Below are positions 39,001 through 42,000 of a stretch of 64,000 nucleotides of DNA, piece by piece. The stretch is taken from NCBI GenBank assembly GCA_040255165.1, contig JBDZUK010000009.1, forward strand, positions 1 through 64,000, in the 5' to 3' direction. The position numbers were made by a program. The DNA comes from Nitrospiraceae bacterium (GTDB lineage Bacteria > Nitrospirota > Nitrospiria > Nitrospirales > Nitrospiraceae). Within the stretch, counting starts at the first letter, position 1; each line of letters begins with the position of its first letter.

Positions 39001-42000
39001 CGGTGAAGAGAACAGGACATATCCCTAGTCATGAAAAAGAAAATTGCCAGAAGGTTGATCCCCCCACACAGATTTAGAGCGGAGAACGTCTGAAGACAGA
39101 CCAACAATGAGCGGCATAAGACGCCGACGGCCGGAATCGCACAGCGGAAGCTAAGGCACACTCTCGCTTCAGACGGCACACTAACCGCAACAGCCGGCGG
39201 TGAATTGCTCACGCTGACGGAAGGCGGGGAGGCAGCCGGCGCACAGGTCCACGTAGGAGGCGGTCGACCGGTCAAGGCATCTTGTCCTGGCCGGCACGAT
39301 CATGCCGCAATCGGAGCACGCGCCTTCGACGACGGTGTCCTGTTTCACATCAAGCTCGATCATAGGTCACCAGCCTTTTGTTTTCCCGAACCGGTCGCCC
39401 CGGACTCGGCCAGGGATGTTTCATGCTGAACCATTTCCACTGCACGGCTGCTTTCAGGCCAGACAGCAGACTCGAAGGTATTCGACCGCTCCGTTCGTTT
39501 TGCAGACGCGCAAGCCGAGCGTTGATCTGCTCCATCGTCCGTTCCAGTCCCGTCAACCGTTCCGCCATCACGTCCGTTCCATAGAGTAGTGCCATGAGTT
39601 CTCCTTTCTCTCGAAATAAGATCAGGACAAGTGACGAATGACGCCGACTAACACCCCTTCAATCCGAATGTCGTCCTCCGGCGTCACAATGATCGGCTTC
39701 ATCGTTTCGTTTGCCGGATGGAGCTCAATATGGGTTTCCTTTTTGACATAGGTCTTGATCGTGGCTTCTTGATTCACCACCGCCACGACGGTCTGCCCAT
39801 TCCTGGCGTTTGCTTGCTTTTGAATGACGACCAGATCGCCGGGAAGAATGCCCTGGTCGCGCATCGACTCTCCTTTGACGCGCAAGGCGAAATACCCCTC
39901 GCCTTTGACCATGCTCGGCGGCACATCGACCAATTCAGTCTGGGGGACGGCTTCGATAGGCGACCCGGCCGCGACGAGGCCGGCCATCGGAATTTCAACT
40001 CGCCTGCTCGGTGGTCGGAGATGTTCAAGCGCAGAGGCAAGCATCCCCGGGATTCGCCGCATGCCTGCTTCATACCGGGCAATGGAGACCCGGGTCGTTC
40101 CTAGATGATCCGCGAGTTGCTGCTGGGTTAAGCCCAGTGCTTCGCGCTTTCTTTTTAGCTCCTGCGACGTCATGTAGCCAATGGTTACATCATGACATCT
40201 AGCTTGTCAAGGCCCTCAGTTCGTCCTAACTACCATTTAAAAGTCGCTCCGCGTGCGGTGTGGATAACAGCCTTGTTTTCCGAAGTTTTTCTTGAGTGCT
40301 TGTGCGAAGAGTTAGACCGTTTCAGTTTCTAATCTGGAATTGCATGATTTTACCTGCATTTTTTGATTCACCCCCATATCTTGTGGTTTCCTGTGACGGC
40401 CCATTCAATGCTTAAAAACTAGGCAAGATGGTCGCTCTCTTATTGAGCCTCGCTTGTTGCATCGAGGTGGGAGAGTTATCAACAGGTTTATCCCCAGAAG
40501 CTGGGGAGAAGAGGTGAGAGGTGTGTGAGATCTGATCTTATTATGATTATGACGCAGCGTCCCGGCGAACGAGATGCACCGCGCCGGCTTTGATCGCGGC
40601 CACGACGGGAGTTCCGACCTGAAGGCGCAAGTCCTCCAGCGCCGCGTTCGTCACCATGGCCGCAAGCCGGAATCCGCAGTCGACGACGACACACGCGAAG
40701 GGCCCGGAAAAGCAAATCTCCTCGACCGTGCCGTTGAGATGGTTCCTGGCACTGGTCGTCCCCGTCCCCACCCGCTCCAGCACCACATCTTCGGCGCGAA
40801 TGCAGACAAACACGTCTCGCCCTACACTTTCCACGTCGACGGCTTTTATCCCATGTTGTGCGACGGCGATCGTCGCCAACCCATTGGATCGATCGAGGAC
40901 GTGGCCCTGCACGACCGTATCGACTCCCACGATCTTGGCCACTTCCGCGTCGATCGGACGTGAGAAGACTTCCTGGGGCGTGCCGGTTTGCAAGACCCTT
41001 CCCCCTGCAATCACGGCCATCCGGTCGCCCAGCGCCAATGCGTCCTCCCAATCGTGCGTCACGATGATCGACGGGAGCGACAACTCCTTCAAGAGACTCC
41101 GCAACTCCCCTCTGAGCCGCAACCTCGTCGGCGCATCCAGGGCGGACAGCGGCTCATCCAGCAGGAGCATCAGCGGACGGCGGGCGATGGCGCGGGCCAG
41201 CGCCACCCGTTGCTGTTGCCCCCCGGATAATTCCCGCGGCTTGCGCTGTTCCAATCCTTGCAATTGAAGCAGGCGAACCACTTCGGCAATGCGCCGCTCC
41301 CGCTGATCCATCGGCAGTCCCCCGAGCCCGAAGCCGATGTTTCCCTTCACCGAATAATGGGGAAACAGCGCGTAGTCTTGGGCCATGTAGCCGACTTCCC
41401 GGTCTTGAGGAGGGACGCGGAGCTGAGCAGCCGTGTCCACCCATGTCCGGGAGACGAATTTGATGTGTCCCGCATCTGGCCAATCAAGCCCGGCCAGGCA
41501 GCGCAGAAGCGTGGTCTTTCCCGACCCCGAAGGTCCAAACAACACCAGGACCGTGGACGCCTCAAGGGTGAGACCGAGCTTGATCTCCATCACGAATCCG
41601 CTCGGAAAGGACCGCCGGATGTCGATGATCATTTCTGCGGCCATGCGGCCCACGCCTTTCGATTGACGGCGTACACCAGCAGCAGAATCAGGTAGGACGT
41701 GACTAGAAGAAAAAGAGACGTCCGACCGGCCGCCGCATAGTTCAGCGCCTGCACCTCGTCATAAATGTCGATGGAGACCGTCCGCGTCACGCCTTCGATG
41801 TTGCCTCCGACCATCAGGACTACTCCGAACTCGCCCAGCGTATGGGCGAAGCTCAGCACCACTCCGGTGATCACTCCCGCTGCAGAGAGCGGAACGACGA
41901 GTTTGAAAAACGTTCCGAACTTGGACACGCCCAGCGTCCACGAGGCCTCCAGCAATCGCCGGTCCACCTGGTCGAACGCACTCGCGAACGGCTGAACCGC

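What a model noticed while it worked through the whole genome (the two positions that open the first line are those of the whole stretch)
39622..40189. New SOS box TGTA-N-CCA-N-TGG-N-TACA read by an XRE-type LexA, with a two-operon regulon
The only LexA-like S24 repressor has an XRE-type HTH instead of the LexA winged helix. A 17-bp palindrome occurs perfectly at just two places in the genome: abutting this gene's start and before imuB-dnaE2 (C147:141185). recA and the uvr genes lack it, so the damage regulon is limited to the repressor and the mutagenesis cassette.
Evidence so far: Genome scan: 2 sites with 0 mismatches, none with 1. TIGR00498 matches only model positions 78-202, N-terminus is HTH_3; AG site, Ser and Lys present. 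Pattern with up to 1 mismatch in 8 of 8 Nitrospiraceae and 10 of 25 order genomes, reversed control 3 hits in all; site lies right before the orthologous repressor in all 8 and in G200, before imuB in G027, and repressor-imuB are one cassette in G059 and G200. PMC8565304 and PMC13148647 hold neither 'Nitrospir' nor 'TGTA'.
(Added by a program. Inside this text positions count along the whole contig: contig position 1 is position 1 of the stretch shown here. "Call 12" and the like, gene names such as g00115 and contig names such as C1 are that model's own, and its searches are not shown. The text may have been shortened before it was handed on; [...] marks where a part breaks off. The agent that wrote the report below was given it as the finding of a first reader that could run no searches.)

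Follow-up and report, generated by a model that had tools for sequence, protein, structure and literature searches.

The report
Nitrospira XRE-LexA operator with recognition code
In Nitrospira-family nitrifying bacteria a 17-base palindrome sits in the predicted promoters of an unusual LexA-like repressor gene and of error-prone DNA polymerase genes, and its letters change together with two of the repressor's predicted DNA-reading residues, so it is likely the switch that keeps mutation-causing polymerases off until DNA is damaged.

Summary
Confirmed and extended. The palindrome (40173-40189) overlaps the start codon of the genome's only S24 repressor, which has an XRE helix-turn-helix and a LexA-type C-terminal domain. 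Its only other perfect copy precedes a Y-family (imuB-like)-dnaE2-udgX operon; both lie 15 bases after TTGACA, over the predicted -10. In 121 Nitrospiraceae genomes the box tracks the repressor (78 of 83 with it, 5 of 38 without); it precedes 24 of 25 unlinked imuB genes and 0 of 30 recA genes. Added here: across 174 loci the operator changes, mostly in both arms, with residues 29 and 39. Two rules fixed beforehand held in 45 of 45 and 44 of 45 fresh metagenome loci; a third failed (43 of 45). In 25 of 25 genomes with several distinct copies, each copy has its own operator class. Tree-corrected tests have too few pairs for significance, and no binding or induction data exist. Corrections: the repressor operon has two more conserved small genes and in close relatives continues into iRadA-PPB2-PolB2; the regulon is mutasome-only, not a full SOS network. 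The scan noted this system earlier in another genome (e1-5245569). New variant of a known kind.

The parts
39622..40173 (-). Repressor gene, 183 aa: XRE/434-like four-helix N-terminal domain (about 1-52) and LexA-type S24 domain (about 59-181) with cleavage site Ala69-Gly70, Ser103 and Lys140
   Evidence: the four residues are invariant in 129 of 129 loci
40173..40189 (.). 17-bp operator-like palindrome, TGTAACCATTGGCTACA on the gene's strand; overlaps the A of the start codon
40205..40210 (-). TTGACA, predicted -35 element, 15 bases before the palindrome; same spacing at the imuB site (C147:141217-141222)
   Evidence: spacing 14-16 in 125 of 130 loci in an unconstrained palindrome search
40181..40186 (-). 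Predicted -10 element inside the left arm (AACCAT, spacer 18; TAACCA at spacer 17 is the alternative); implies a start site at or within a few bases of the ATG, i.e. a leaderless or nearly leaderless mRNA (inferred)
   Evidence: genome-wide TTGACA-N-TANNNT peaks at spacers 17 and 18 (59 and 49 vs 2-11 elsewhere); no GGAG/GAGG/AGGA in 0 of 125 short leaders; the consensus promoter scan did not call it
39350..39595 (-). 81-aa ORF of no known family (N-terminal coiled-coil-like part), likely second gene of the repressor operon
   Evidence: homologs behind the repressor in 108 of 175 loci; no Pfam match at E 0.001
39181..39363 (-). 60-aa Cys-rich ORF (CxxC...CxxC...GCCG), overlapping the previous stop; likely third gene, probably metal-binding
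   Evidence: profile hits in 100 of 175 loci; best Pfam ZZ zinc finger E 0.006, below cut-off; Atlas gives only unnamed clusters

Best explanation
The palindrome is likely the operator of the adjacent repressor, a protein with an XRE-type DNA-binding domain and a LexA-type self-cleaving domain, which would sit as a dimer on the predicted -10 element of its own operon and of the imuB-like/dnaE2/udgX operon and would be removed by RecA-stimulated self-cleavage after DNA damage. Shown: the two sites, their identical spacing from TTGACA, the domain make-up, the intact cleavage and catalytic residues, the family-wide link of box, repressor and polymerase genes, and the absence of the box at recA. 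Inferred: binding, dimer, repression by occluding the -10, leaderless translation of the repressor mRNA, RecA-dependent cleavage, damage induction. Predicted reading code: invariant Arg28 with the invariant outer TGT; residue 29 sets pairs 4 and 5 (Arg gives G at 4, Leu gives T at 5); residue 39 sets pair 7 (Arg gives C, His gives G, most others A). In the ancestor the repressor likely headed an iRadA-PPB2-PolB2 operon, which this genome has lost, and incoming repressor-polymerase cassettes keep different operators, so resident and cassette circuits would not cross-react.
For: Two sites at 29-30 bits against a next best of 19.3 (permuted control maximum 19.2), and no other site above 5 bits with -35 geometry. 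Pattern with up to 1 mismatch in 83 of 121 family genomes, reversed control in 12; 78 of 83 genomes with the full-length repressor have it, and 4 of the 5 exceptions carry a variant operator before a variant repressor. 22 of 29 examined sites away from a repressor precede imuB or dnaE2. 24 of 25 unlinked imuB loci have it; the exception follows a different, winged-helix-looking LexA; 0 of 30 recA loci have a match within 3 mismatches. Covariation in 129 loci: Arg29 with G:C at 4/14 in 14 of 14 and never otherwise; residue 39 Arg/His/other with C/G/A at pair 7 in 102/9/18 of 102/9/18; the best-predicting columns of the whole protein lie in helix 3 and the loop behind it. Written down first, then tested on 45 new metagenome loci: 45 of 45 for pair 4, 44 of 45 for pair 7. 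All 35 departures at pair 7 are mirrored in the other arm. 25 of 25 multi-copy genomes have a different operator class per copy. C-terminal domain 40-46% identical to solved LexA, 16-20% to lambda/186 repressors; 48 of 60 scanned top representatives carry LexA_DNA_bind.
Against: No binding, expression or cleavage data. Operator and HTH-coding DNA are adjacent, so co-inheritance alone gives some covariation; independent pairs on well-supported branches number only 2-3 per rule (5 at most on the best tree), all concordant except about 0.1 for His39, and none reaches p 0.05. Most test loci are of the common type (only 5 Arg29 and 8 non-Arg39 among the 45). The pre-set Lys27 rule failed (43 of 45) and was replaced after the fact by Leu29; one locus (L360) broke the three-state rule. 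Departures at pairs 4 and 8 are mirrored only 19 of 39 and 7 of 20 times. No case of a variant operator acting in trans was found (the variant occurs only before the repressor in 3 genomes lacking this imuB). Five genomes have the box but no repressor match; one is a chance site in a coding region, three are 70-81% complete, and in G060 the syntenic region runs into a contig end. DnaE2 scores below the curated cut-off of the error-prone polymerase model (586 vs 939); it is called DnaE2 from its place beside the Y-family gene and a separate dnaE on C2/C118.
Confidence: 0.8

Rival explanations
1. The repressor binds the box as described, but the regulon is wider: recA, uvr or other repair genes carry degenerate or differently spaced sites that a fixed 17-bp model misses.
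For: 7 of 29 examined sites lie elsewhere; two in G041 precede a small protein ending in a clamp-motif-like QLxLP, one of them followed by DUF72, a family that PMC11791011 section 3.1 links to damage-response neighbourhoods. PMC8565304 says CI-type repressors can accept variable spacers. 132 matches were not listed and not examined.
Against: In this genome nothing else rises above the permuted control; 0 of 30 recA loci have a near match, and 28 of 30 instead share a different promoter motif.
Confidence: 0.09
2. The palindrome is read by another factor, or is a promoter element, and merely travels with the adjacent repressor gene.
For: The box overlaps the predicted -10 and has strand bias (central T in 117 of 129), so part of its conservation is promoter constraint; linkage explains some covariation; tree-corrected tests are not significant.
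Against: The right arm, outside the -10, is as conserved as the left and changes in mirror image at pair 7 in 35 of 35 cases; copies in one genome differ in operator, which one outside reader would not explain; genera whose S24 protein looks like winged-helix LexA lack the box and have another palindrome.
Confidence: 0.05
3. The repressor binds the box but is a domesticated prophage or element repressor whose release is not tied to DNA damage (or it activates).
For: XRE/434-like N-terminal fold, whole-length match to PHROG 4 repressors, leaderless-looking mRNA as in lambdoid repressors (recalled), operator diversity like phage immunity groups.
Against: Cleavage and catalytic residues invariant in 129 of 129; targets are translesion polymerases in two unrelated cassette types; no full-length relative above 34% among the 25 listed of 102 phage records or in viral contigs; a site on the -10 fits repression.
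Confidence: 0.06

Closest known systems
Non-canonical LexA of the Bacteroidetes (Sanchez-Osuna et al. 2021, PMC8565304)
   Same: S24 repressor with a CI-like all-helical N-terminal domain, fixed-spacer palindrome, autoregulation, control of error-prone polymerases, paralogs with different motifs.
   Different: Other motifs (GGA-N5-TCC, CTAA-N5-TTAG); those form their own clade with an extra C-terminal helix and control recA and repair genes. Here the C-terminal domain is LexA-type, the model ends in a strand, and only mutasome operons carry the box.
Minimal S24 damage regulators HdiR, UmuDAb and Francisella FddR (as described in PMC8565304 and PMC13148647)
   Same: Small regulon of the regulator itself plus error-prone polymerase or neighbouring genes; recA not included.
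   Different: HdiR and FddR cluster with phage repressors, UmuDAb with UmuD; FddR paralogs keep one motif (GTG-N11-CAC), whereas copies here differ in operator.
lexA-imuA-imuB-dnaE2 mutagenesis cassette (as summarised in PMC3919608; Erill 2006 itself not available)
   Same: Self-regulated repressor-Y-family-DnaE2 cassette, contiguous or split.
   Different: No imuA found; repressor has no winged helix; udgX follows dnaE2.
LexA-iRadA-PPB2-PolB2 operons (Timinskas et al. 2025, PMC11791011)
   Same: Gene order behind the repressor in close relatives; the supplement lists a Nitrospira sp. operon with a 'LexA' neighbour.
   Different: In the passages, section 3.1 and supplement rows I saw, neither the XRE domain nor an operator is described; the two small intervening genes are extra; this genome lacks the PolB2 module.

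Membership tests
Canonical LexA | Winged-helix DNA-binding domain (PF01726) | tested here: not met
   HTH_3 instead; four helices and no wing in two models; Foldseek neighbours are XRE/434/P22 c2-type, all at E above 0.001
Canonical LexA | LexA-type S24 domain with Ala-Gly site, Ser and Lys | tested here: met
Canonical LexA | Controls recA and repair genes (canonical SOS network) | tested here: not met
   0 of 30 recA loci; two sites only in this genome; sequence-based only
Canonical LexA | RecA-stimulated self-cleavage and damage induction | not testable with these tools
   residues present, recA present; no usable RNA data
Bacteroidetes non-canonical LexA | CI-like multi-helical N-terminal domain on an S24 domain | tested here: met
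Bacteroidetes non-canonical LexA | GGA-N5-TCC or CTAA-N5-TTAG motif, extra C-terminal helix | tested here: not met
   different operators; model ends in strand 169-179
Bacteroidetes non-canonical LexA | Belongs to that clade of S24 proteins | not tested
   no Bacteroidetes sequences were put in the tree
Phage CI repressor | CI-type C-terminal domain | tested here: not met
   16-20% to lambda/186 vs 40-46% to LexA; joins neither phage group in a quick tree, placement among LexAs only 87 SH-aLRT
Phage CI repressor | Prophage setting with divergent cro | tested here: inconclusive
   neighbours look like a molybdate transporter operon and a giant secreted protein, by eye; ORFs under 70 aa upstream were not examined
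imuA-imuB-dnaE2 cassette | imuA present | tested here: not met
   NF033429 finds only RecA itself and one weak hit, below cut-off
imuA-imuB-dnaE2 cassette | Y-family homolog next to a second DnaE | tested here: met
   catalytic acidic residues look absent by eye, not tested by alignment
LexA-iRadA-PPB2-PolB2 operon | iRadA, PPB2 and PolB2 behind the repressor | tested here: not met
   none in this genome; complete in 6 of 14 relatives picked partly for having iRadA

The most novel reading that the evidence does not exclude
A LexA catalytic domain acquired an XRE DNA-binding domain once in the Nitrospirales, replaced the resident LexA in most genera, and radiated into a set of mutually insulated repressor-operator pairs, like phage immunity groups, that let several mobile mutasome cassettes (Y-family/DnaE2 and PolB2) coexist in one cell; specificity is set almost wholly by residues 29 and 39, giving a natural, readable code for a damage-inducible switch.
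Probability: 0.45. Interest if true: 0.75.

Novelty: new variant of a known kind. Interest (0 to 1): 0.6.

Why it matters
It names the probable damage-response switch of Nitrospira, key nitrite and complete ammonia oxidisers, for which my searches found no LexA motif in print. It also bears on an open question stated in PMC8565304, why SOS motifs diverge so readily: here the divergence is caught in many small steps, tied to single residues and to coexistence of paralogs, and can be tested with a handful of point swaps. If the chimera reading holds, it is a third route to an SOS-type regulator besides LexA duplication and capture of a whole phage repressor. Databases label these proteins plain 'repressor LexA', which hides the different DNA-binding domain.

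Tried and rejected
Wider regulon by weight matrix: the third-best site (C77:110417) lies at the start of a coding region without -35 geometry and equals the control maximum; two 2-mismatch sites on C58 have no geometry. Variant operator in trans in G038, G059, G103, G075, G002: found only before the repressor in 3 of 5; these genomes gave no close imuB. Lys27 rule: failed out of sample. Tree-corrected covariation: too few pairs. Careful C-terminal tree did not finish; only the quick tree exists, its LexA rows were chosen for closeness to the query, and one row (P0190) was labelled winged-helix although Pfam found no such domain. Viral contigs gave no close relative. Literature searches without a relevant hit: (open-access library only; supplements of preprints and most subscription papers unseen; RegPrecise-type databases not available). 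Erill 2006 (PMC1326238) not held. No complex prediction was sent: the tool does not take DNA partners.

Full report
Observation. The 17-mer is at 40173-40189 and overlaps the start codon of a 183-aa gene on the minus strand. The genome (3.72 Mb, 165 contigs, 99% complete, 4.7% contaminated) holds two perfect copies, none with one mismatch and five with two; about 0.007 are expected by composition, a figure that flatters because the pattern came from these sites. The second copy lies 13 bases before a Y-family gene (IMS, IMS_C), followed with overlapping or adjacent frames by a second DnaE (1029 aa), a UdgX-family uracil-DNA binding protein (TIGR03914 above cut-off) and an isochorismatase-family gene. 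No ImuA was found. Record titles and source names of relatives place the family as Nitrospiraceae.

The protein. Pfam gives HTH_3 plus Peptidase_S24. TIGR00498 is passed on the C-terminal part alone. It is the only S24 match in the genome; no LexA winged-helix domain was found here or in five closed relatives. The model has four N-terminal helices and no wing; the nearest solved folds of that domain are XRE proteins, P22 c2 and 434 repressor, though a 58-residue query reaches only E 0.006. The C-terminal domain is 40-46% identical to solved LexA and 16-20% to lambda and 186 repressors; by sequence the PDB hits are LexA, UmuD and one designed protein. Of the 150 best representatives among 1.84 billion proteins I scanned 60: 48 carry LexA_DNA_bind, 4 HTH_3, 8 neither. 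In a quick tree of C-terminal domains the family is one branch (100) inside a group of LexA domains (87, not starred) and joins neither group of the 8 phage repressors; the LexA rows were chosen for closeness, so a domain swap is a likely reading, not a shown one. Ala69-Gly70, Ser103 and Lys140 are invariant in 129 of 129 loci.

Range. 91 of 121 family genomes match at E 1e-15, 83 of them at near full length. In a phylum sample of 251, full-length matches occur only in this family and in 4 genomes of a second family of the same order. Two genera of the family instead have a protein that looks by eye like winged-helix LexA, with another palindrome, GGTGTAC-N4-GTACACC-like, at its start.

The box and its targets. 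The pattern with up to one mismatch is in 83 of 121 genomes, the reversed control in 12. 78 of 83 genomes with the repressor have it and 33 of 38 without lack it. Of the five with repressor and no box, four have a variant operator and one gene is cut by a contig end; of the five with box and no repressor, one site is in a coding region, three genomes are 70-81% complete, and in G060 the syntenic stretch runs into a contig end. One search listed only part of its matches; of 29 listed sites away from a repressor that I opened, 16 precede imuB, 6 dnaE2, 7 something else. Starting from the gene instead, 24 of 25 imuB loci without an adjacent repressor have the box (this count includes the own genome and the unpublished G005), and 0 of 30 recA loci have a match within three mismatches to any observed operator. 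A weight matrix gives 29-30 bits for the two sites, 19.3 for the next, 19.2 for the permuted control.

Position. Both sites lie 15 bases after TTGACA; an unconstrained palindrome search gave 14-16 in 125 of 130 loci. In this genome TTGACA is followed by TANNNT mostly at 17 or 18 bases (59 and 49 against 2-11), so the -10 should fall in the left arm. The ATG overlaps the last base in 53 of 129 loci and follows two bases later in 61, with no ribosome-binding motif in 125 of 125 short leaders: a leaderless mRNA is inferred. The consensus promoter scan did not call this promoter.

Covariation. Second copies of the repressor head their own cassettes and carry other palindromes. In 129 distinct loci (one broken gene dropped; identical sequences merged) Arg28 and the outer TGT are nearly or fully invariant; Arg29 goes with G:C at pairs 4/14 (14 of 14, never otherwise); residue 39 Arg, His or other goes with C, G or A at pair 7 (102, 9, 18 without exception); symmetric T at pair 5 goes with Lys27-Arg-Leu29-Ala30 (9 of 9). 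The columns that best predict these bases lie in helix 3 and the following loop, though residues 32, 36 and 43 predict about as well as 29 and 39. I wrote the rules down and scanned metagenomes. Of 80 loci, 48 reached the N-terminus; two were unusable and one was already known. In the 45 left, the pair-4 rule held 45 times (5 with Arg29), the three-state pair-7 rule 44 times (8 non-Arg; L360 has a new operator), and the Lys27 rule failed twice, with Leu29 fitting all 45 after the fact. All 35 departures at pair 7 are mirrored in the other arm, against 19 of 39 at pair 4, where the -10 likely interferes. Close C-terminal domains (92-94% identical) carry N-terminal domains only 64% identical with different operators. 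On trees of the C-terminal domain each trait changes 2-5 times, at the same count as its base except His39, but only 2-3 independent pairs lie on starred branches and no test reaches 0.05. That residues at these places contact bases in 434-type repressors is recalled, not from a call.

Insulation. In 25 of 25 genomes with two or three distinct fetched copies, each copy has a different operator class, the resident one always the common class. Outside that count: G083 has two common-class copies, one identical to another genome's (9% contamination), G041 has three like copies on separate contigs of which one was fetched, and G019's second copy is broken. These genomes are kin and not independent.

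The repressor's operon. An 81-aa and a 60-aa Cys-rich ORF follow the repressor here and in about 100 of 175 loci. In the closest orthologs the operon continues iRadA-like, PPB2-like (MGRT start, as in PMC11791011) and a B-family polymerase: complete in 6 of 14 relatives chosen partly for this, decayed stepwise in the others. This genome has none of the three. So the family controls two unrelated mutasome types.

Literature. PMC8565304: abstract, sections 14 and 17, and a supplement search (no 'nitrospir' or 'leptospirillum'). PMC13148647: abstract and discussion. PMC11791011: passages, section 3.1 and two supplement rows; its table has 203 'nitrospir' occurrences, of which I saw two places. 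PMC3919608 and PMC12926913: passages. Searches gave no description of this operator or domain combination in Nitrospira; the library is open-access only. The scan itself reported the same system from another genome (e1-5245569) and like designs in other phyla; these are unchecked notes, not support.

Verdict. Real, and very likely the operator of a minimal damage-inducible mutasome regulon (0.8). It works like HdiR, FddR and the Bacteroidetes regulators but is a member of none tested. The design is known; the operator family, the LexA-type catalytic domain under an XRE head, the residue-base code and the per-copy insulation are the new parts. Interest 0.6.

Noticed in passing
G000:C85:4475-4504 and L254, L260-L288: recA promoters share CTA(G/T)G(C/T)T-N11-17-(G/A)GTATAAT in 28 of 30 loci; a similar pattern occurs once in this genome, at recA. 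Possibly a separate control of recA.
   Followed up: partly
L103, L104, L107, L109, L110 (genera g33, g16): Winged-helix-looking LexA with an 18-bp palindrome GGTGTAC-N4-GTACACC-like over its start; one perfect site per genome in 5 of 5, weaker hits no more frequent than the control.
   Followed up: partly
L071:4017-4340 and L072:3659-4063 (G041): Two small, seemingly related proteins ending in a clamp-motif-like QLxLP lie right behind copies of the box; the first is followed by DUF72. Possible extra regulon members.
   Followed up: partly
L088 (G104:C19): Repressor with His39 has its operator 69 bases upstream and a second, similar palindrome just behind it.
   Followed up: no
window 9787-36015, minus strand: One ORF of 8,742 aa with a planctomycete-like signal region, an OmpA-like stretch and RTX-like repeats by eye; a giant secreted or surface protein.
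   Followed up: no
window 38249-38953, minus strand: 234-aa ORF starting with the same LEPxExRLLLS motif as the giant protein; no Pfam match.
   Followed up: no
L416:3145-3290 (G001) against G060: A dispersed repeat of about 150 bases with more than 40 matches in G060, next to a tRNA-sized conserved stretch.
   Followed up: no
window 40547-48133, minus strand: Molybdate/tungstate ABC transporter-like operon with porin and an HTH_3 plus PBP_like regulator just upstream of the repressor.
   Followed up: no
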